Assembly: GCA_903844155.1 (NCBI GenBank)
Contig: CAIMSU010000113.1
Location: 96,361 to 160,360, forward strand
Reading direction: 5' to 3'
DNA length: 64,000 bases
Source of the DNA: an uncultured Pseudomonadota bacterium
Lineage (GTDB): Bacteria > Myxococcota_A > UBA796 > SXON01
Within the stretch, counting starts at the first letter, position 1, and each line of letters starts with the position of its first letter. A model generated the notes under the pieces. The model made no database searches and was not told the origin of the DNA. It saw nothing but the letters and a program-made list of their open reading frames with translations. A program made the translations under genes and the position numbers. Shown here in pieces: positions 52,174 through 58,120 of this stretch.

Positions 52174-53036
52174 CGTCGTCGGTTTTGATAGGTGGGGAAG
52201 ATTGGGGAGCGGCGGTCGGGGCGGCGGGGCGCGGCGAGTGGCTGATCCTCCGCGCTGCGTGGTCCGCGGTGGAGCCGAAGCGGGGCGAGTACGACGAGGG
52301 GCTCATCGAGGCGGATCGTCGGGCGCTGATCGCCGCCCGGAAGCAGGGCGTGGAGGTGATCCTCGTCGCGCACAGCGGGGGGCTGCCGGACTGGCAGATC
52401 GAGCGGGACGGCTGGCTGGATGGCGACGCGTTGGCGGGGTTCGGCTGCTACGTCGACCGCCTGGCGCACGCGTACGGCGAGCTCGTCCGGCACTGGGTCG
52501 GGCTCTGGGAGCCGCTGGGCGAGGCGGCAATTTATGAGGCGGACCGCGGGAAGGTCGCGCGCACGCTCCTGGACGTCCAATCGAGCGCGTGGCTGCACCT
52601 GCGAAAGGCGCCGGGACCGGGTGGCGCGGGGACGGTGGTGGGGGTGGCGGAGCGCTTCGACGTGGTCAGCCGGCGACGGGATCGCCTCGGGGCCGACGCC
52701 CTCGGGCGCATCGCAGGCGCGCTGGGCCGGACGGCGGCCGAGGAGGCATGGCGCAGGTCCGCGCCCCACGCGCTGGTGGCCGTCTTGAGCAGCGGACGCC
52801 TCGCCCCCCCGTTTGGCGCGGTGGGCGAGCTTTCTGGCGGCACGGCCGCCTCGGACTTCACGGTCGCGCTCCGGCCGACGGTGCAGGACCTGCACCAGAT
52901 CTGGCTTACGGGGCGGGCCGTGTTCGTGCTGGGCGATGTCGGCGTGGCCGAGGAGGCCGCTAAGCAGGGCGTACGGGTCCTTGGCGCCGCTCCCTACACC
53001 GGCTCTTCCACCACCTCAAACCTGCCGAAGTCGTAG
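52170..53036 (+). CDS. Short GH1-like (beta-glucosidase-fold) protein with degenerate catalytic motifs
   Basis: GTGA overlap with maf. The N-terminal half parallels GH1 (WSAVEPKRGEYDEGLIEADRRALIAARKQGVEVILVAHSGGLPDW...DGWL...FGCYVDRLAHAYGELVRHWVGLWEP), but NEP is WEP and no ITENG-type nucleophile motif is seen. Only 288 aa. Confidence 0.5.
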   Translation: MTSSVLIGGEDWGAAVGAAGRGEWLILRAAWSAVEPKRGEYDEGLIEADRRALIAARKQGVEVILVAHSGGLPDWQIERDGWLDGDALAGFGCYVDRLAHAYGELVRHWVGLWEPLGEAAIYEADRGKVARTLLDVQSSAWLHLRKAPGPGGAGTVVGVAERFDVVSRRRDRLGADALGRIAGALGRTAAEEAWRRSAPHALVAVLSSGRLAPPFGAVGELSGGTAASDFTVALRPTVQDLHQIWLTGRAVFVLGDVGVAEEAAKQGVRVLGAAPYTGSSTTSNLPKS

Positions 53037-54208
53037 CGTTCTCCGGCCGCGCGCTCGACCTGGACGAGGCGCTCGCGAATGCCTTCGCGGCGCAGTTGCA
53101 CCACGCGGTGGTAGCAAAGCGGGTTGTTGCCCCGGCGCCCCAGCAGTGTGTGTGCGGTGAACGAGCACCCGCCCTGGCAGGTATCGGCGTAGTAGCAGCG
53201 CTTGCAGTAGCCCCAGAGCTCATCGGAGCGCTGCGCACGAGCGAAATTCAGCGCGTCCGCGTGCTTCCAGATCGCGTCCAGCGAGAGGCTCCGAACGTTG
53301 CCGCCCGTGTACGGCGCCGTCGGCAGCGACGGGCAGCCCTTCACCGTGCCATCGCTCTCGATCCCGATCACCGCCTTGCCCGCCGCGCAGCCGATCCAGT
53401 GGCGCGCGCTCCCGCCCGGTCTCGACCGCAGCACCTCCTCGTGCGGACCGAAGTAGCCGACGTTGTTGGCAGCCTGCACATTGAAGCAGCCGAGCGGACG
53501 CGGCTTTTCCCAGGCGCGGGGGTTCGCGACGGCGTCCAGCTGGATGGCGGCGAGGGTGTCCAGGATGGTCACGACGTCCGACGGCTGCACGATCCAGTCG
53601 GGGTGGTCGGCCGCGTTCCCCATCGGCGTCGTGAGCTGGACCTGCCACGACCGCACCTTGTGGTCGCGCAGCATCGCCGCCGTCTCCCGCAGCGTGTGCT
53701 GGTTGAGGCGGTTGATCTGCATGTTGGATGTCACGATCAGCCCGGCCGTCTGCACGTTTTGGACGGCCTGCAACGCCGCCTTGTGGCTCCCCTTGTTGCC
53801 GCGGAGCGTGTCGTGGGCGTCCTCGAGGCCGTCGATGCTGATGCCGACGGCGGCGAGGCCAGCGTCTGCGAACCGCTCGCAGCGCTGCAGGGTCAGTGCC
53901 CGCCCGCCCGACTGCATCGTCACCCGCATGCGCAACCCGGCGATGATCCGGATGATCGCCTCGATGTCGGGGCGCAGGTACGCCTCGCCGCCGATGAGCG
54001 TGACCTCTCGGCAGCCGAGTCGTGCCAGCGCCGTCGCCACCTCCTCGATCTGCGCGGTGGTCAGCTCCTCGGCCCGTGCCGAGCCAGCGCGCGTGCCGCA
54101 GTGCTGACAGGGCTGGTCGCAGCGCGTCGTCAGCTCCCAGACCGCGTAGATCGGCTTCGGGTCGTCAAGCTCGGCGATGCGGAACTCGCGGGCGAGGGGA
54201 GCGGGCAT
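52994..54208 (-). CDS. Radical SAM enzyme with C-terminal SPASM/twitch-type auxiliary cluster domain
   Basis: ORF 52994..54565 trimmed to ATG 54208 (MPAPLAREFRIAEL...). CxxxCxxC = CDQPCQHC. C-terminal Cys clusters IGCAAGKAVIGIESDGTVKGCPS and YCKRCYYADTCQGGCSF. Confidence 0.85.
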   Translation of the reverse strand: MPAPLAREFRIAELDDPKPIYAVWELTTRCDQPCQHCGTRAGSARAEELTTAQIEEVATALARLGCREVTLIGGEAYLRPDIEAIIRIIAGLRMRVTMQSGGRALTLQRCERFADAGLAAVGISIDGLEDAHDTLRGNKGSHKAALQAVQNVQTAGLIVTSNMQINRLNQHTLRETAAMLRDHKVRSWQVQLTTPMGNAADHPDWIVQPSDVVTILDTLAAIQLDAVANPRAWEKPRPLGCFNVQAANNVGYFGPHEEVLRSRPGGSARHWIGCAAGKAVIGIESDGTVKGCPSLPTAPYTGGNVRSLSLDAIWKHADALNFARAQRSDELWGYCKRCYYADTCQGGCSFTAHTLLGRRGNNPLCYHRVVQLRREGIRERLVQVERAAGERYDFGRFEVVEEPV

Positions 54209-54232
54209 GGCGGTAGGGTATTCCGCGCGTCC

Positions 54233-54262
54233 TTGACAGTCCGCCGACAATTGCGGCAAGCT
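54233..54262 (+). promoter_or_regulatory. TTGACA-N18-CAAGCT promoter candidate, 6 nt upstream of GTG 54269 (leaderless-type)
   Basis: Perfect -35 hexamer. The -10 hexamer keeps the A at position 2 and the T at position 6. The predicted start site coincides with the G of the GTG start. Confidence 0.4.
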
Positions 54263-54268
54263 GTAGGG

Positions 54269-55072
54269 GTGAATGGGAATCCACGCTCGCGCTTCCCGCG
54301 GACGACGGTCGTCGCCTTCCTCGGTGCGTGGGCGTGGGCGAGCGGCTGCGCCCACCACGTGTCTTGGGAGGTTCAGCCAAAGCCGAGCTACAACCTTCCG
54401 AGCGGAGGGACGAGCGGCGTCGTTGTCTCCGTGGTTTTCGACGGTCGGGACTGCAAGCCCGTCGCCGACGCGCTGGTCAGCACCCTCGGCAAACGCACCG
54501 GGATCGACGTGCGCTCCGGCGCCGGGATCCGCCTCGAGGTTCGAAACTGCGACCGCGGCCAGCAACGGACCATGGAATTCGACGATGGGATGGACGCGGC
54601 GACCGGGTCGATGGCGGGCTCGGCGTTCTCCGGCGGGCCGGACAAGCGCCGCTACACGATCCGGGGCTGGTCGTCGGCCGAGCTGTCGGTGATCAGCGCC
54701 ACGGGCAGCTCCGTCGTCCTCTCGGGCTCGGCCAACCGCACCGTCAACAGTCCGTGGGTGCCCGACGACGACCTCGACGTCAACCGCTCCATCAGCCTCG
54801 CGGACGATCTCGCCAACGAGGTGGCCGGCAACCTGGCGAACCAGCTTGCGCCGGTGCCTGTCTCGCTACGCCGAACGGTCTACTCGGACGCGCCCCCAGG
54901 GTCGGCGCACGACCTGCACAACCGGGCGGTCGCGGCCGAGCAGGCGGGGGATCTCGTGGCTGCCCTGCGACTCGCGAGGCAGGCTCAAGCAGAGGACCCG
55001 TGCCGCGCGGGTGCCGAGTACGTACTCGCGCTGCAGGCCCACGCGAGCACGGTGGGCGAAAAGGTCTTCTAG
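54269..55072 (+). CDS. Lipoprotein, unknown function, with C-terminal TPR-like helices
   Basis: ORF 53096..55072 trimmed to GTG 54269 ((M)NGNPRSRFPRTTVVAFLGAWAWASGC lipobox). C-terminus HNRAVAAEQAGDLVAALRLARQAQAEDP. The stop shares the tetranucleotide CTAG with the convergent AAA+ gene. Confidence 0.65.
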   Translation: MNGNPRSRFPRTTVVAFLGAWAWASGCAHHVSWEVQPKPSYNLPSGGTSGVVVSVVFDGRDCKPVADALVSTLGKRTGIDVRSGAGIRLEVRNCDRGQQRTMEFDDGMDAATGSMAGSAFSGGPDKRRYTIRGWSSAELSVISATGSSVVLSGSANRTVNSPWVPDDDLDVNRSISLADDLANEVAGNLANQLAPVPVSLRRTVYSDAPPGSAHDLHNRAVAAEQAGDLVAALRLARQAQAEDPCRAGAEYVLALQAHASTVGEKVF

Positions 55073-56772
55073 ACCCGATTTCCGAGCTGCATCCTCAAGA
55101 TGTCCAGCTTCGCCAGTACGTCCGGGGTGGCGAGCGAGGCGAACCGCTCGGGCAGCATCCGCCGCGCAGAGCTCTCGAACACCGCCAGCATTTCCATGTA
55201 CTCCAGCATCCGCACGTCGCGGCTGGGGATGGTGTCGGCCGAGGCACGGGCGAGATCCTCGGCGCCGATGTGGGTGCGGGCGTCCCAGGCGGCGAAATTC
55301 GTTGCGGCGAGCACGACCGCCTCGATCTCCGCGGCGGAGTAGCCTTTCACCGCCTCGACCACGCCCAGCAGGTCGACGCCGTCGGCCATCGGCAACTCCG
55401 AGCGCCGCAGCACGGCACGGATCACGGCCTCGCGCTCCGCGGCATCCTCCGGGTAGAAGAAGGGGATCTTCAGATCGAAGCGACCGGGGCGCTTCAGGTC
55501 CGTGTCGAGCTTGTCCGGCCGGTTCGTCATCATCAGGATGATGATCCGGCCACGGTGGCTTGTGTCCGACATGAACTCCTTCAACCGGGCGATCACGCGG
55601 CTGCCTGTGCCGCCGTCGCCGTCGCCCCCGCCGGCCAACGAGCGGTCGGCCTCGTCGATGATGAGGAGGACGTAGCCCAACCCCTCCACCACCCGAAGGA
55701 TTTTCTCGAGGTTTCCCTCGGTCGAACCGACCCACTTCTCCCGGAAGTTCTTGAACTTCAGGCAGGTCAGCCCGCTCTCCTTCGCAAACGCCTCGGCGAG
55801 GAACGTCTTGCCCGTGCCCATCGGCCCGACAAAGATGGCGCCCATCGGCACGCGCCCGCGCTGGTTCTGCTTGATCGCCTCGGCAACGCGCAGGAGCTGC
55901 TCCTTCACGGCACCCATCCCGCCGACCCCGCCAAAATCGTGCTTCGGGTCGACGAACTCGACGAGCCCGTGGCACTCCTGCTCGATGATCGCCTTCTTCT
56001 TGCGGTTCACGGACGCAAAGTCGACCTTCTCGCCGGACTGCCGGGCCTGGCGCAGGAAGCCGCGAATCTGGACGAGGGTGAGGCCCGCGGTCACCTGGCC
56101 GAGCTGGAGCTCGGTGATGCCGAGCGTGATGCCTCGCTGATCCTGGAGGCGGATGAACTGCGAGCGCTCGTCCTGGGCGGGAAGCGGGACTTCCAGGACC
56201 GCGAGGTTGGACGACGCGACGAGGCGGCGGTGGACGTCCGAGAGGTTCTCGGTGACGAAGATGACGAGGTTGTCGGACGACGTCAGCCCGGGGTCCGCGC
56301 CGAGGCGAAGCAGCGTGACGAGGTTCTGCTTGTCCTGCTCGCCCATGAACGAGATCTCGCCGTTCGGCACGATCATCTCGATGAAGTCGACGACGACGGC
56401 GGCGCGCTGCGAGGGGTCGGTGACCAGATCCTCGATGAGGCCAAGCACGCCCGACGGGCTCTTCGGCAGCTCGGTCACCGGGTCGCGGCCGTCGAGCAGG
56501 CGACGAGCGCTCACGCCGCGCTTGAACGTGGCCAACTGCGCGGCGTTCGCGAACTCCACCCCCTCGGACACGTTGTAGTACAGCACCATGTCCTTGTTTC
56601 GACCAAGGAATTTCGTCAGGAACTCCCGCAGCGCCACGTAGCGGATGGTGCCATCGGCGTCCGTCCACGGCTGCACGTCCCGAACGTTCCCGTGGATGAG
56701 GAAAACGCTGGATTCACCAGCGAGATAGCGGGCGCGCAGGCCTTCGGCCCAGCGGGGGAGGATTGGTTCCAT
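55069..56772 (-). CDS. AAA+ ATPase (classic clade) with degenerate N-terminal ATPase-like domain and one active AAA module
   Basis: Walker A GPMGTGKT; Walker [10 protein letters not shown]; sensor-1 MMTNRPD; second region of homology with RPGRFD. The N-terminal ~250 aa have an AAA-like layout, but [12 protein letters not shown] replaces the P-loop and [11 protein letters not shown] replaces Walker B. Confidence 0.85.
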
Positions 56773-56836
56773 CGGGGGCGGGTAACCGGAAACGCGTCAG
56801 TTCGGGGCGCGGGGGAAGCGTTCGAACGTCACGCCC

Positions 56837-57580
56837 CTACTTCTTGCTGCGGGCCACGGTTTTCACCCGTTCCGCCAGCTCGTCGAGGCGGCGCCCGAGG
56901 TCCTCGACGGCCTTTGGGTCCACGCTCGCCTTCCCTGGGCGCACGCCCTCGATCCGTTCGAGGCGCTCGATGATGTCGATGAGATCGCCGTCGGGGCCGA
57001 CGACGTCCTCGACCTCGTCTTCCAGGCGTGTCACCCGGCCTTCGGTCCCGTCCAGGCGCGTGACCCGCGTGTCGAGCGATGTGGCGCGGCTGATGATTCC
57101 GGCGAGCACGCCTTTGCCCTGCTCGATCCGCTTCAGTCGGCGGTTCAGGTTGGTCTCGCGGCGCGCAGAGCGGACCAGCAGCGCCTCCAGGTCGTTCACC
57201 CTCGCGGTGAGCGCCGTGAGCTGCTCATAGACCCGGACGGCGTGCCCGAGCAGGGGAACGCGCGCGGAGAGGACGTCGAGGTTGTCGCCCAGGCCGGTGG
57301 CCGACAGCCAGCGGGGGGTGCCGTCAAAAAGCCCCGCCGGGACCGGTTCACGTTCGCCAAGGACGACGCCGAAGAACCCGCCGACGGCGACGGGGACGTC
57401 GTCGTGGGCCTCCGACCACAGCGCAACCGAGTCGTCGCGCCCGGCGTGCAACGCGATGCGGAGGTCGTAGAGTCCGGGGTCCGCGGTGCGCTCGATGCGC
57501 CGACCCTGGGCGGTTCGCACGGGCTCGACACTGCTGCCGACCCGGAACAGGCGCCCGTGGAACTCGATCAGGGAGGCCAA
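56837..57580 (-). CDS. Hypothetical protein: N-terminal beta-rich domain + ~125-aa coiled coil
   Basis: TTG start preceded by GAGGAG. N-terminal LYDLRIALHAGRDDSVALWSEAHDDVPVAVGGFFGVVLGEREPVPAGLFDG..WLS. C-terminal heptad-rich part with the direct repeat TRVTRLDGTEGRVTRLEDEVEDV. No signal peptide. Confidence 0.7.
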   Translation of the reverse strand: MASLIEFHGRLFRVGSSVEPVRTAQGRRIERTADPGLYDLRIALHAGRDDSVALWSEAHDDVPVAVGGFFGVVLGEREPVPAGLFDGTPRWLSATGLGDNLDVLSARVPLLGHAVRVYEQLTALTARVNDLEALLVRSARRETNLNRRLKRIEQGKGVLAGIISRATSLDTRVTRLDGTEGRVTRLEDEVEDVVGPDGDLIDIIERLERIEGVRPGKASVDPKAVEDLGRRLDELAERVKTVARSKK

Positions 57581-57862
57581 GCCGGCTCCTCGCTTGGCGC
57601 AGCATACATCCGGGTGGCGATTGCCTGGGCGGTTGCAGCGGCCGGAACGATAGAATCATGTTTTAACGCTCCATAAAGAGCGGTCCGTCCGACGACCGAG
57701 CACGGGTCCGGCGCGCGTGCGCGGCGCGCGGCACCTTGTCCATCGTCGGGCGGTGGCTATTTGTGCGGCGCCTCGGTCCGCCCGAAACGGATCGTTGCAC
57801 GTCGAGACCGCTCGTGTCGGGCCAGCCGCCGGGAGCGATCTTAGGAAGGACCCGGAGCGATC

Positions 57863-58120
57863 ATGAAGCGAATTACCCGCACCGTCACCCGGAAGGTCAC
57901 TGAAAGCATCACGTCGGGTACCCGATCGGTGCTTCAGTACAGCGCGTCTCCGGTCATGCTCGCGGTCGCGCTCGGGCTGCTCGGTCCGGCGGCCCTGAAC
58001 GACGACGAAGATGACGCAGCCGCCCTCGTGGCCCCAGCGCCAGCCCCGACCGCGACGCCGGATTCGGCTCCTGACGCGGCCCGATCGGACACGGACGCGC
58101 CCACCGCCAACGCGCGCTGA
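57863..58120 (+). CDS. Small hypothetical protein (one hydrophobic helix, acidic Ala/Pro-rich tail)
   Basis: ATG preceded by AGGAAGGA. MKRITRTVTRKV...SPVMLAVALGLLGPAAL, then NDDEDDAAALVAPAPAPTATPD. 85 aa. Coding status is uncertain. Confidence 0.4.
   Translation: MKRITRTVTRKVTESITSGTRSVLQYSASPVMLAVALGLLGPAALNDDEDDAAALVAPAPAPTATPDSAPDAARSDTDAPTANAR

What the first reader, a model, noticed from the sequence alone, without database searches (positions are those of the whole stretch)
55069..57580. Two-gene module: beta-rich/coiled-coil protein followed by an AAA+ ATPase with a dead first ATPase domain
Seen: a 247-aa protein with no signal peptide has a beta-rich N-domain (LYDLRIALHAG..ALWSEAHDDVPVAVGGFFGVVLGEREPVPAGLFDG). 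By eye this resembles N-terminal domains of fibre or collar-type surface proteins. A heptad-rich coiled coil follows, with the internal repeat TRVTRLDG/GRVTRLED. The AAA+ gene lies 64 nt downstream on the same strand. It encodes a 567-aa classic-clade AAA+ protein with an intact Walker A (GPMGTGKT), Walker B (IIDEAD) and Arg-finger region (RPGRFD). Its first ~250 aa look like a second AAA layout with the P-loop and Walker B destroyed. Inference: an unfoldase or remodeller paired with a dedicated filamentous or coiled-coil partner. The pair sits between a radical-SAM/lipoprotein pair and the dapDE operon, and I cannot assign it to any named system. Candidate roles are defence, a cytoskeletal element or secretion-associated remodelling.
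Basis: partly seen in the sequence, partly recalled or inferred. Interest (0 to 1): 0.6.

Follow-up and report, generated by a model that had tools for sequence, protein, structure and literature searches.

The report
Fibre-like protein paired with half-dead AAA+ unfoldase
A conserved two-gene operon pairs a protein-unfolding ATPase, which in other bacteria sits next to the membrane-repair protein PspA (a relative of ESCRT-III), with a different partner here: a coiled-coil protein that resembles a phage tail fibre and has no export signal.

Summary
Both ORFs, the 64-nt gap and every quoted motif are present, and the pair is co-conserved.

The 567-aa protein is a classic-clade AAA+ with all active-site and pore-loop motifs intact. 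In front of it lies a domain with an AAA fold but no P-loop. The AlphaFold model aligns over about 570 columns with Cdc48 D1+D2.

This is not a housekeeping SpoVK/CbbX or Cdc48 protein, and it shows no defence signature. It belongs to an uncharacterised family that comparative genomics has already described ("inactive classical AAA + classical AAA"). In other phyla this family is encoded just downstream of PspA/IM30 (bacterial ESCRT-III) or of a membrane-anchored coiled-coil protein, and was predicted to act like Vps4.

The new result is a neighbour swap. All 49 fibre-linked sequences, including the window's, fall in one clade of uncultured Myxococcota-like genomes. In that clade the upstream gene encodes a signal-peptide-less protein instead. 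It has an N-terminal beta-sandwich weakly related to the N-domain of Bdellovibrio MAT fibres, followed by a coiled coil. In most relatives a tail-fibre-like C-terminus follows, with a phi29 gp12-like autochaperone. The window carries the short form.

Most likely mechanism (inferred): a hexameric unfoldase that remodels oligomers of its cognate coiled-coil partner.

Verdict: new variant of a known kind, moderate interest.

The parts
57581..57862 (-). Intergenic region upstream of the partner gene, where the promoter of the pair presumably lies. No promoter was identified.
   Evidence: There is no sigma-70-type match. The sequence has a locally AT-richer stretch just upstream of the start codon. 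A divergent small ORF (57863-58120, +) and dapD follow.
56837..57580 (-). Partner gene, 247 aa, TTG start. This is the short form of a fibre-like family: an N-terminal beta-sandwich plus a coiled coil, with no signal peptide.
   Evidence: ORF. GC3 is 0.89. There are 13 close homologues and HMM hits in 46 of 80 ATPase loci. Pfam, NCBIfam, PADLOC and PHROGs give no hit for the window protein itself.
57251..57580 (-). Partner N-domain, residues 1-110: a beta-sandwich.
   Evidence: AlphaFold pLDDT is about 90. No significant structural neighbour exists in PDB or BFVD. 16 of 28 family N-domains hit NCBIfam NF053851 Bdello_MAT_N, best E 1.7e-6; the window copy itself does not hit at E<=1.
56840..57250 (-). 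Partner helical / coiled-coil region, residues 111-247.
   Evidence: DSSP helices span residues 112-244 of the model, with lower pLDDT. hhalign against PspA gives probability 0.5%, and against the membrane-anchored coiled-coil protein 3%.
56945..57025 (-). Conserved acidic motif LEDEVEDVVGPDGDLIDIIERLERIEG (residues 186-212). It is the most conserved segment outside the N-domain and a candidate docking site for the ATPase (inference).
   Evidence: Invariant E187, D188, G195, D197, G198, D199, D202, R206, E211 and G212 in A2. The motif is also present in long forms. Coordinates.
56773..56836 (-). 64-nt intergenic spacer within the presumed operon.
   Evidence: No terminator-like site lies in the spacer. 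In relatives the spacing is -15 to +137 nt in 44 of 46 loci, including 4-nt overlaps.
55069..56772 (-). AAA+ ATPase gene, 567 aa: tandem layout with a degenerate D1 and an active classic-clade D2.
   Evidence: ORF. Pfam AAA at residues 313-438, E 1.8e-25. AlphaFold pLDDT is 86. Foldseek aligns it to Cdc48 D1+D2. It shares 31-48% full-length identity with PspA-linked homologues.
55948..56772 (-). D1-like degenerate AAA domain, residues 1-275. It includes the invariant N-terminal helix LPxWAxxLRxRY (56725-56760), FLIHGNVRD in place of Walker A (56677-56703) and [10 protein letters not shown] in place of Walker B (56374-56403).
   Evidence: No Pfam AAA hit here. The structural alignment extends over Cdc48 D1. 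A profile of this domain finds 1749 cluster representatives but only weak PDB matches, to the PAN and Vps4 lid region. Coordinates.
55273..55947 (-). Active D2 AAA module, residues 276-500: Walker A 55804-55827, pore loop 1 KWVG 55726-55737, Walker B 55645-55668, sensor-1 TN 55513-55533, Arg fingers RPGRFD 55474-55491.
   Evidence: All these residues are invariant in 35 homologues. They align residue by residue with Cdc48 D1 and D2. Coordinates.
55072..55272 (-). C-terminal helical extension, residues 501-567, with the family-specific motif [30 protein letters not shown] (55141-55230).
   Evidence: Helices in the model. R518, D519, R521, M522, L523, M526, E527, A530, V531, F532, E533, L540 and P541 are invariant in A1. 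P516, A530, V531 and P541 are kept even in distant PspA-linked homologues.

Best explanation
The two genes form an operon that encodes an ATP-driven remodeller and its cognate oligomeric coiled-coil protein.

The ATPase (shown by sequence and model).
- It is a tandem-AAA protein. The N-terminal AAA fold has lost its nucleotide-binding motifs, so it probably forms a structural or docking ring (inferred).
- The C-terminal classic-clade AAA has an intact Walker A, Walker B, sensor-1, Arg fingers and an aromatic pore loop (KWVG). It should therefore work as a hexameric, substrate-threading unfoldase like Cdc48 or Vps4 (inferred from the established mechanism of classic-clade AAA+ proteins).

The family context (shown).
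- The ATPase belongs to a widespread, experimentally uncharacterised bacterial family.
- Outside this clade, members are usually encoded directly downstream of PspA/IM30 (bacterial ESCRT-III) and/or of a membrane-anchored coiled-coil protein.
- Comparative genomics has predicted that this family is the Vps4-like partner of those polymers.
- In the clade that contains the window, that neighbour has been replaced once by an unrelated protein.

The replacement partner (shown).
- It has a beta-sandwich distantly related to the anchoring N-domain of Bdellovibrio MAT fibres, then a coiled coil.
- In most relatives a tail-fibre-like C-terminal module follows, with a phi29 gp12-like autochaperone. The window has the short form without that module.

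Best guess at function (inferred). The ATPase binds this fibre-like oligomer, perhaps through the conserved N-domain or the acidic GPDGD motif, and unfolds or disassembles it in the cytoplasm. That would be the same job the family is thought to do on ESCRT-III-type polymers.
For: Anatomy.
- All catalytic and pore-loop residues are invariant in 35 homologues and align with Cdc48.
- The model aligns with Cdc48 D1+D2 over about 570 columns, TM up to 0.65-0.66.

Family membership.
- A profile of the D1 domain finds 1749 cluster representatives, mostly 560-620 aa.
- Four of seven distant members that I looked up sit in PspA operons.
- One of them, L086, reproduces the published Handelsmanbacteria operon: PspA, PBPB/OmpA, TM, ABC, TM+Snf7, then inactive-AAA+AAA.
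- The window protein is 31-48% identical over its full length to these PspA-linked proteins.
- In 80 further metagenomic loci, PspA lies directly upstream in 14 and the membrane-anchored coiled-coil protein lies upstream (<=390 nt) in 24.
- Literature: Ravi et al. 2024, PMC11237479.

Pairing with the partner.
- The partner is directly upstream on the same strand in 48 of the 80 loci; of the other 32, 6 had too little upstream DNA to judge. Spacing is -15 to +137 nt in 44 of 46.
- The partner-first test scored 5 of 5.
- The pair travels together. In most relatives it lies between an RmlD-like gene and rplU-rpmA-obg; in the window's sub-clade it lies beside dapD/dapE. No FHA, HEAT or rplU homologue occurs anywhere in the 64-kb window.

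Clade-specific swap.
- In an NJ tree of 160 ATPases, all 49 fibre-linked sequences form one clade of 72 leaves with no PspA- or TM-coiled-coil-linked member.
- Outside that clade, 45 of 79 informative leaves are so linked and none is fibre-linked.

Partner nature.
- MAT N-domain hits.
- phi29 gp12 autochaperone, 3gqh, E 0.0016.
- Peptidase_G2 intramolecular-chaperone domain in 4 of 15 long forms.
Against: - No physical or functional link between the two proteins has been shown. Everything about the mechanism rests on gene order and on analogy with Vps4/ESCRT-III and Cdc48.
- About a third of the genomes in the fibre clade have the ATPase without the partner next to it (26 of 74 informative loci). 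The ATPase therefore has a role that does not need a cis-encoded partner.
- The ATPase is far more conserved than the partner: 72% mean column identity against 43% for the partner N-domain. That pattern fits a hub enzyme with several clients.
- The partner shows no detectable similarity to PspA, so transferring the ESCRT-III analogy to it is a guess.
- The MAT-N and autochaperone similarities are weak and below the curated cut-offs. The window's own protein does not hit MAT_N.
- The PspA link of the family is itself only a comparative-genomic prediction. A 2025 review still states that a Vps4-like ATPase appears absent from bacteria.
Confidence: 0.5

Rival explanations
1. The fibre-like protein is an adaptor or cofactor rather than the client. 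Its N-domain or acidic motif docks on the dead D1 ring, as UBX or Ufd1/Npl4 cofactors dock on Cdc48. The long coiled coil, and in long forms the tip domain, would then recruit other substrates or tether the ATPase to a cellular structure.
For: - The ATPase is much more conserved than the partner.
- The ATPase persists without the partner in 26 of 74 informative loci of the same 80.
- Partner C-termini vary: 18 short forms and 28 long forms with a tip-like module, which is typical of swappable recognition ends.
- A catalytically dead D1 ring serving as a docking platform fits the Cdc48-like architecture.
Against: - No candidate third component is conserved with the pair. The flanking genes differ between sub-clades.
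- In the rest of the family the upstream gene is a polymer-forming ESCRT-III-type protein, for which the client role is the established paradigm (Vps4).
Confidence: 0.2
2. The partner is a genuine extracellular or surface fibre: a MAT-like or tail-fibre-like adhesin of a predatory or social Myxococcota lineage. The ATPase would be its dedicated cytoplasmic assembly or quality-control chaperone, or would feed it to a Sec-independent export route.
For: - The N-domain is related to that of the Bdellovibrio surface MAT fibres.
- Long forms carry a 'GDxMTGGL' fibre-like segment and a phi29 gp12-type autochaperone, features of virion or surface fibres that fold in the cytoplasm.
- FHA-domain and HEAT-repeat genes lie in the same-strand array upstream in many relatives. 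In L091 the HEAT gene's stop overlaps the partner's start.
Against: - No family member has a signal peptide, lipobox or transmembrane segment.
- No secretion-system, phage-tail or baseplate genes occur in any of the loci.
- MAT fibres carry their N-domain after a signal peptide.
- The window's short form lacks any tip or autochaperone module yet keeps the ATPase.
- The rest of the ATPase family is linked to cytoplasmic, membrane-associated PspA rather than to exported proteins.
Confidence: 0.12
3. The adjacency has no special functional meaning. The ATPase is a general housekeeping unfoldase of this lineage, possibly tied to ribosome biogenesis because it sits directly upstream of rplU-rpmA-obg-rsfS-rlmH. 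The partner is simply a neighbouring gene inherited with it.
For: - rplU (47 loci), rpmA (47) and obg (43) follow the ATPase on the same strand among the 80 loci.
- The ATPase is very highly conserved.
- Eukaryotic Cdc48-family relatives among the PDB hits (Rix7/NVL, Afg2/Drg1) act in ribosome maturation (function from established knowledge).
- Many clade members lack the partner.
Against: - The pair moved as a unit away from rplU/obg in the window's sub-clade.
- Distant family members have no ribosomal neighbours; they have ESCRT-III-type upstream genes instead.
- Spacing is tight or overlapping, and the partner-first test scored 5 of 5.
Confidence: 0.12
4. The pair is an anti-phage defence module, for example one related to IetAS or to other AAA-based systems.
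For: PADLOC IetA models hit the ATPase, best E 1.9e-13. NCBIfam IteA hits at 42 bits. A phage-tail-fibre-like partner could in principle act as a decoy or sensor.
Against: - The hits cover only the generic AAA module and fall far below the cut-offs (IteA 42 bits against 510).
- The partner is not an IetS-type protease and hits nothing in PADLOC.
- Base composition is uniform.
- The locus is vertically inherited, with fixed housekeeping synteny across dozens of species, and the ATPase is 60-88% identical between them. This is unlike defence islands.
Confidence: 0.03

Closest known systems
'Inactive classical AAA + classical AAA' ATPase encoded next to bacterial PspA / membrane-anchored Snf7-like genes (Ravi et al. 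2024, mSystems, PMC11237479; known from comparative genomics only)
   Same: - Same polypeptide layout, with a dead N-terminal AAA and an active classic AAA.
- The window protein is 31-48% identical over its full length to members that sit directly downstream of PspA.
- The N-terminal motif and the C-terminal 'IPxRD...AV.E' motif are shared.
- The upstream gene encodes a coiled-coil protein of about 230-280 aa, on the same strand with tight spacing.
   Different: - The window has no PspA or Snf7-like gene anywhere in its 64 kb.
- The upstream protein has a beta-sandwich N-domain and no detectable ESCRT-III similarity.
- The fibre-linked ATPases form a separate clade.
Vps4/CdvC with ESCRT-III (archaea, eukaryotes)
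   Same: A classic-clade AAA+ with an aromatic pore loop, encoded directly downstream of a self-assembling helical protein. Family-level gene context suggests the same logic of ATP-driven polymer disassembly.
   Different: - There is no MIT domain, and the protein has two AAA folds instead of one.
- The CdvC model scores 54.5 bits against a cut-off of 650.
- The partner here is not an ESCRT-III protein.
Cdc48/p97/VAT
   Same: This is the best sequence and structure match: PDB E 4e-48, and Foldseek alignment over D1+D2 with TM up to 0.65-0.66. Both have a stacked two-ring layout.
   Different: - The D1 here has no Walker A or B.
- No double-psi-barrel N-domain was detected.
- TIGR01243 scores 98.6 bits against a cut-off of 802.65.
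- A family-specific C-terminal helical extension is present.
Bdellovibrio MAT (mosaic adhesive trimer) fibres (Caulton et al. 2024, PMC10769870)
   Same: A conserved beta-rich N-terminal domain is followed by a long trimeric-fibre-type region and a variable C-terminal end. 16 of 28 partner N-domains hit NCBIfam Bdello_MAT_N.
   Different: - In MAT proteins the N-domain follows a signal peptide and the fibres sit on the cell surface. The partner has no signal peptide.
- The hits are below the curated cut-off, and the window copy does not hit.
- Long forms end in a Peptidase_G2-like module rather than an S74 chaperone.
- No ATPase partner is reported for MAT fibres.
phi29 gp12 pre-neck appendage (tailspike) C-terminal autochaperone / Pfam Peptidase_G2 intramolecular-chaperone (IMC) domain
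   Same: The C-terminal 120 aa or so of the long partner forms match weakly: 3gqh E 0.0016; PF11962 in 4 of 15, best E 5e-4.
   Different: The module is absent from the window's short form. The similarity is weak, and no autocleavage site was examined.

Membership tests
Classic-clade AAA+ ATPase (Pfam PF00004) | Score above the Pfam gathering threshold | tested here: met
   90.4 bits against a cut-off of 21.2, residues 313-438.
Classic-clade AAA+ ATPase (Pfam PF00004) | Walker A GPxGxGK[ST], Walker B hhhhDE, sensor-1 polar residue, two Arg fingers in the second region of homology, and an aromatic-hydrophobic-Gly pore loop 1 | tested here: met
   GPMGTGKT 316-323, LLIIDEAD 369-376, TN 416-417, R428/R431 and KWVG 346-349. 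All are invariant in 35 homologues and aligned with Cdc48.
Cdc48/p97/VAT (NCBIfam TIGR01243) | Whole-protein score above the curated cut-off | tested here: not met
   98.6 bits against a cut-off of 802.65.
Cdc48/p97/VAT (NCBIfam TIGR01243) | Two nucleotide-binding AAA domains preceded by a double-psi-barrel N-domain | tested here: not met
   D1 lacks the Walker motifs. The protein starts directly with the D1-like fold.
Inactive-AAA + classical-AAA, PspA-associated ATPase family (Ravi et al. 2024) | Two AAA folds in one polypeptide, with the N-terminal one inactive | tested here: met
   Only one Pfam AAA hit, but a structural alignment over Cdc48 D1+D2. No GK[ST] motif or hhhhDE in residues 1-275.
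Inactive-AAA + classical-AAA, PspA-associated ATPase family (Ravi et al. 2024) | Full-length homology to ATPases encoded beside PspA or TM-Snf7-like genes | tested here: met
   48, 43, 38 and 31% identity to P0140, P0288, P0286 and P0214, whose loci carry PspA. The D1 profile retrieved P0140 and P0214 themselves, and the 50%-identity cluster representatives of the other two (P0153 for P0288, P0145 for P0286), at E from 6.7e-74 to 7.2e-35. The reference accessions of the paper (for example AEY64320.1) could not be fetched, so the link runs through the identical operon architecture of L086.
Inactive-AAA + classical-AAA, PspA-associated ATPase family (Ravi et al. 2024) | PspA or Snf7-like gene in the same neighbourhood | tested here: not met
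   A PspA HMM and a TM-coiled-coil HMM find nothing in the 64-kb window or in any fibre-clade locus. [quoted passage not shown]
Vps4/CdvC | N-terminal MIT domain plus a single AAA, and a score above the curated cut-off | tested here: not met
   NF041006 CdvC scores 54.5 bits against 650. No MIT domain appears in Pfam.
PspA/IM30/ESCRT-III (for the 247-aa partner) | Sequence or profile similarity to PspA_IM30 or Snf7 | tested here: not met
   No Pfam hit. hhalign A2 against a PspA alignment gives probability 0.5%.
MAT fibre family of Bdellovibrio (for the partner) | Conserved beta-rich N-domain of about 130 aa (NCBIfam NF053851) | tested here: inconclusive
   16 of 28 family members hit at E<=1, best 1.7e-6, with no competing family. 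The one bit score reported (15.7) is far below the 60-bit cut-off, and the window copy does not hit.
MAT fibre family of Bdellovibrio (for the partner) | Signal peptide preceding the N-domain (surface localisation) | tested here: not met
   The protein starts at the first beta-strand, and the ORF cannot extend upstream. No signal-peptide predictor was run.
MAT fibre family of Bdellovibrio (for the partner) | Beta-helical fibre ending in an S74 chaperone or an adhesive tip | tested here: not met
   The window protein ends after the coiled coil. Long relatives carry a Peptidase_G2-like module, not an S74 module.
IetAS or other PADLOC defence systems | Full-length match to the ATPase model plus the cognate second gene (IetS protease) | tested here: not met
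   IetA scores 48.6 bits over the AAA module only, and the partner has no PADLOC hit. NCBIfam IteA scores 42 bits against 510.
   Neither appears among the 15 NCBIfam families matched. 'SpoVK/Ycf46/Vps4' occurs only as JGI's generic COG label.

The most novel reading that the evidence does not exclude
In one Myxococcota-like clade, the conserved, functionally Vps4-like tandem AAA+ of bacteria has exchanged its ESCRT-III-type client for a domesticated phage-tail-fibre-like trimer that stays in the cytoplasm. This would create a new kind of ATP-remodelled intracellular fibre or tether system. Alternatively, it would be a Sec-independent route for deploying a MAT-like fibre. Either way it would imply that this ATPase family is a general disassemblase for whichever self-assembling protein is encoded upstream of it.
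Probability: 0.2. Interest if true: 0.75.

Novelty: new variant of a known kind. Interest (0 to 1): 0.55.

Why it matters
How bacterial ESCRT-III polymers (PspA, Vipp1) are disassembled is an open question. A 2025 review still states that a Vps4-like ATPase appears absent from bacteria. The ATPase family seen here is the main in-silico candidate for that role, and it has never been tested.

This locus adds two things.
- Fresh, quantified support that the family is tied to ESCRT-III-type genes. Outside the fibre clade, 45 of 79 informative loci show the link.
- A natural experiment. In one clade the upstream client gene was swapped for an unrelated fibre-like coiled-coil protein, while the ATPase stayed 60-88% identical.

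Comparing the two kinds of pairs could show what the dead D1 ring and the conserved termini recognise. The fibre-like partner is soluble and has no membrane-binding helix, so it may be an easier substrate than PspA for biochemistry.

The locus also extends the N-domain of the Bdellovibrio MAT fibres to cytoplasmic proteins of another predatory-type phylum.

Tried and rejected
- Fusion idea. I suspected that the 808-830-aa homologues were partner-ATPase fusions. They instead carry a second copy of the degenerate N-domain.
- Iterated partner HMM on stop-to-stop ORFs. It drifted and produced a spurious conserved 'gene X'. This was the antisense translation of the RmlD-like gene in high-GC DNA, and I discarded it.
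- Partner as a divergent PspA/ESCRT-III. Rejected by Pfam and hhalign.
- Word-indexed search with the N-domain profile. It returned a single protein and was uninformative.
- Snf7 similarity of the membrane-anchored coiled-coil neighbour. Pfam did not reproduce it, so that label rests on the literature.
- Phage origin. Phage records match only the AAA module at about 28% identity. The locus has host-like composition and housekeeping synteny.
- A 59-aa ORF (54652-54831, -) with GC3 0.97 upstream of the radical-SAM/SPASM gene looked like a RiPP precursor. It is the antisense shadow of the plus-strand lipoprotein gene.
- The sigma-70 promoter scan found nothing.

Full report
**1. Observation**

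The window carries two same-strand ORFs exactly as described. The first is 56837..57580 (-) of 247 aa with a TTG start. The second is 55069..56772 (-) of 567 aa. They are separated by 64 nt.

Both have the codon-position GC pattern of real genes in this 67-70% GC sequence. GC3 is 0.89 and 0.91, and GC2 is 0.46 and 0.41. No terminator-like hairpin lies in the spacer.

**2. The ATPase**

Sequence:
- Pfam sees one AAA domain, at residues 313-438, E 1.8e-25.
- NCBIfam lists CDC48, FtsH, PAN, CdvC and IteA models, all far below their cut-offs. The protein is therefore a classic-clade AAA+ that belongs to none of those named families.
- The best PDB sequence matches are Cdc48/p97, at E 4e-48.

Motifs. 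All of the following are invariant in an alignment of 35 homologues:
- Walker A: GPMGTGKT.
- Pore loop 1: KWVG.
- Walker B: LLIIDEAD.
- Sensor-1: TN.
- Arg fingers: RPGRFD.

Structure:
- An AlphaFold model built on that alignment has a mean pLDDT of 86.
- Foldseek aligns it over about 570 columns with chains that contain Cdc48 D1+D2, with TM up to 0.65-0.66.
- Residues 1-275 therefore have an AAA fold, but 'FLIHGNVRD' replaces the P-loop and 'VVVDFIE' replaces Walker B.
- A profile of this N-domain finds only marginal PDB matches, to the lid region of PAN and Vps4 at E 0.18-1.3. No member of the family has a solved structure.

Some homologues of 808-830 aa carry a further copy of the dead domain. 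They are not fusions with the partner.

**3. The partner**

The window protein:
- It has no hit in Pfam, NCBIfam, PADLOC or PHROGs.
- It has only 13 close homologues in the word-indexed protein search.
- Its AlphaFold model shows a confident beta-sandwich at residues 1-110, followed by long helices of lower confidence.
- Foldseek finds no significant neighbour in PDB or BFVD.

The wider family. An HMM of the family, applied to loci fetched through the ATPase, shows a larger and faster-evolving family. It has two forms: short (about 210-280 aa, like the window) and long (about 420-535 aa).

Evidence that it is fibre-like:
- 16 of 28 N-domains hit the NCBIfam model Bdello_MAT_N. The best E is 1.7e-6 and no competing family appears, but the one bit score reported (15.7) is far below the 60-bit cut-off and the window copy does not hit.
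- That model describes the conserved N-domain of the Bdellovibrio 'mosaic adhesive trimer' fibres. In those proteins the domain follows a signal peptide and is thought to anchor the fibre to the cell surface.
- The extra C-terminal 280 aa or so of the long forms begins with a 'GDxMTGGL' segment.
- It ends in a module that weakly matches the phi29 gp12 tailspike autochaperone (PDB 3gqh, E 0.0016) and Pfam Peptidase_G2 (4 of 15, best E 5e-4).

Other features:
- No family member has a signal peptide. The conserved N-terminus is the first beta-strand itself.
- Outside the N-domain, the most conserved element is an acidic motif, LEDExEDxxGPDGDxxDxxER.
- Profile-profile comparison with PspA gives 0.5% probability.

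**4. Co-conservation**

Fetching through the ATPase:
- A scan of one genome per species found 240 genomes that encode a relative of the ATPase.
- The 80 best loci kept are all uncultured MAGs. Most are labelled Myxococcota or Deltaproteobacteria, and a few carry plainly wrong species labels.
- In 46 of these 80 loci the partner lies directly upstream on the same strand. Spacing is -15 to +137 nt in 44 of them.
- Two further loci hold contig-truncated long forms.
- About six loci have too little upstream DNA to judge, and about 26 lack the partner.

Fetching through the partner: all five contigs examined have the 567-568-aa ATPase immediately downstream.

Flanking genes:
- Most relatives have the order TPR/FHA, HEAT, ABC1 kinase (-), RmlD-like (-), [partner], ATPase, rplU, rpmA, obg, one unknown gene, rsfS, rlmH.
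- In the window's sub-clade the pair lies beside dapD/dapE instead.
- The 64-kb window holds no homologue of any of those other flanking genes.
- The two genes therefore move as a unit.

**5. Placing the ATPase family**

- A profile of the dead D1 domain, searched against 1.84 billion cluster representatives, gives 1749 hits at E<=0.001. Most are 560-620 aa.
- Among those with a source label are Sericytochromatia and Latescibacterota, labelled only 'ATP-binding protein'.
- I looked up the contigs of seven distant members:
  - Two have a PspA_IM30 gene 10-38 nt upstream.
  - One has PspA, then a 276-aa protein, then the ATPase.
  - One (Latescibacterota) has PspA, PBPb/OmpA, a 445-aa protein with no Pfam hit, a permease, an ABC ATPase, a 273-aa TM + coiled-coil protein, and then the ATPase.
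- The last arrangement is exactly the operon listed for Candidatus Handelsmanbacteria by Ravi et al. 2024. [quoted passage not shown] It proposes ATP-dependent membrane remodelling comparable to Snf7-Vps4.
- The window ATPase is 31-48% identical over its full length to these PspA-linked proteins. It shares their N-terminal and C-terminal family motifs.
- A metagenome scan with a diverse alignment added 80 loci at 32-63% identity. PspA is directly upstream in 14, and the membrane-anchored coiled-coil protein lies upstream (<=390 nt) in 24, often with PspA further up. The fibre partner appears in only one.
- Pfam did not confirm Snf7 similarity for the membrane-anchored protein. That label rests on the paper.

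**6. A clade-specific swap**

I built an NJ tree of 160 full-length ATPases, without support values.
- All 49 fibre-linked sequences, including the window's, fall in one clade of 72 leaves.
- Within that clade no leaf is linked to PspA or the TM-coiled-coil protein. Nineteen have neither, and four are uninformative.
- Outside the clade, 45 of 79 informative leaves are linked to PspA and/or the TM-coiled-coil protein, and none is fibre-linked.
- One close relative outside the clade (L080, 59% identical) has PspA, then a 914-aa membrane protein, then the ATPase.

The simplest reading is a single displacement of the ESCRT-III-type upstream gene by the fibre-like gene.

**7. Mechanism**

Shown:
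- An intact classic-clade motor with an aromatic pore loop.
- A nucleotide-motif-less D1 with an AAA fold.
- A tight, conserved operon with a coiled-coil protein.
- Family-wide association with self-assembling helical proteins.

Inferred, from the established mechanisms of Cdc48, Vps4 and other classic-clade AAA+ proteins: the protein forms a two-tier hexamer and threads a polypeptide through its D2 pore. Its client, or possibly its adaptor, is the upstream-encoded oligomer.

Unknown:
- Whether the partner is a client or an adaptor.
- Where the complex sits in the cell.
- What the complex is for.

Evidence against a strictly dedicated pair:
- About a third of the clade lacks the partner at the locus.
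- The ATPase is far more conserved than the partner.

**8. Alternatives**

- Defence is unlikely. PADLOC and NCBIfam hits cover only the generic AAA module, the partner hits nothing, composition is uniform and synteny is vertical.
- A ribosome-biogenesis role is suggested only by lineage-specific synteny with rplU-rpmA-obg. That synteny is lost in the window's sub-clade and absent from distant members.
- A surface-fibre assembly or export role fits the MAT and tailspike similarities. It is contradicted by the lack of any export signal or secretion genes.

**9. Verdict**

The ATPase is a member of a family already noted in silico as PspA-associated, and never characterised experimentally. The fibre-like partner and its clade-specific replacement of the ESCRT-III-type neighbour appear to be undescribed: my literature searches found no report of it. 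I rate the finding as a new variant of a known kind, with moderate interest.

Noticed in passing
P0051, P0067, P0072 (proteins of 815-828 aa); loci L033, L047, L059: Some family members carry an extra N-terminal copy of the degenerate AAA domain (dead-dead-active, about 820 aa). The copy repeats the LPxWAxxLRxRY ... FLxHG motif. These genes still have the fibre-like partner upstream.
   Followed up: partly
L004-L083, for example L054:7840-10289 and L024:7754-11216: Among the 80 species-level loci the ATPase gene is followed on the same strand by rplU (47 loci), rpmA (47) and obg (43). A conserved 235-aa protein with no Pfam or NCBIfam hit, then rsfS and rlmH, follow in smaller subsets. The window's sub-clade has lost this linkage.
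   Followed up: partly
L091:794-4004; L024:2867-4219; loci with clusters 4 and 7: FHA-domain (FHA-FHA-TM-TPR) and HEAT-repeat genes lie in the same-strand array upstream of the partner in many relatives. In L091 the HEAT gene's stop overlaps the partner's start by 4 nt. They may belong to the same system, but the window has neither.
   Followed up: partly
window 52994-54565 (-); L001:7824-9074: A radical-SAM/SPASM gene lies downstream of the ATPase on the same strand. In the closest relative with a long contig (L001) it follows the ATPase after only 30 nt. In another close relative (L002) it is absent. No precursor-peptide gene was found.
   Followed up: partly
window ~54328-55072 (+): A lipoprotein-like gene with the lipobox-like sequence 'FLGAWAWASGC' and no Pfam hit converges on the ATPase gene and overlaps its stop codon by 4 nt. 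The 59-aa minus-strand ORF at 54652-54831 with GC3 0.97 is its antisense shadow.
   Followed up: yes
window 57863-58120 (+): A small ORF of 85 aa, with a hydrophobic segment and an acidic, Ala/Pro-rich tail, lies just upstream of dapD. Similarly placed small genes of 61-65 aa are called in L001 and L002. It has no family hit.
   Followed up: no
L090:4001-6158: A contig full of small, unannotated, phage-like ORFs encodes a homologue of the ATPase. Its gene carries an intein (PF14890) and is split in the gene call.
   Followed up: no
L114, L128, L135, L141, L144, L159 (upstream ORFs); L087:5750-7798: In a subset of distant family members that lack PspA, the upstream gene is a large Ser/Thr protein kinase (6 loci). 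In one locus a 682-aa WD40 protein follows the ATPase. These are other possible partner types.
   Followed up: no
L005, L014, L052 and other record titles: Several high-GC, Myxococcota-like MAG contigs in the species-representative collection carry implausible organism names, such as 'Bifidobacterium breve', 'Klebsiella pneumoniae' and 'uncultured Enterobacterales'. These look like submission-label errors.
   Followed up: no
phage records H1-H15, for example Mycobacterium phage Corndog gp96: Cluster-O-type mycobacteriophage 'AAA-ATPase' genes match residues 185-516 at about 28% identity. The match covers the end of the dead domain plus the active module. PHROG phrog_8638 (568 positions) matches at E 1e-41. 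A related two-domain ATPase may exist in phages.
   Followed up: no
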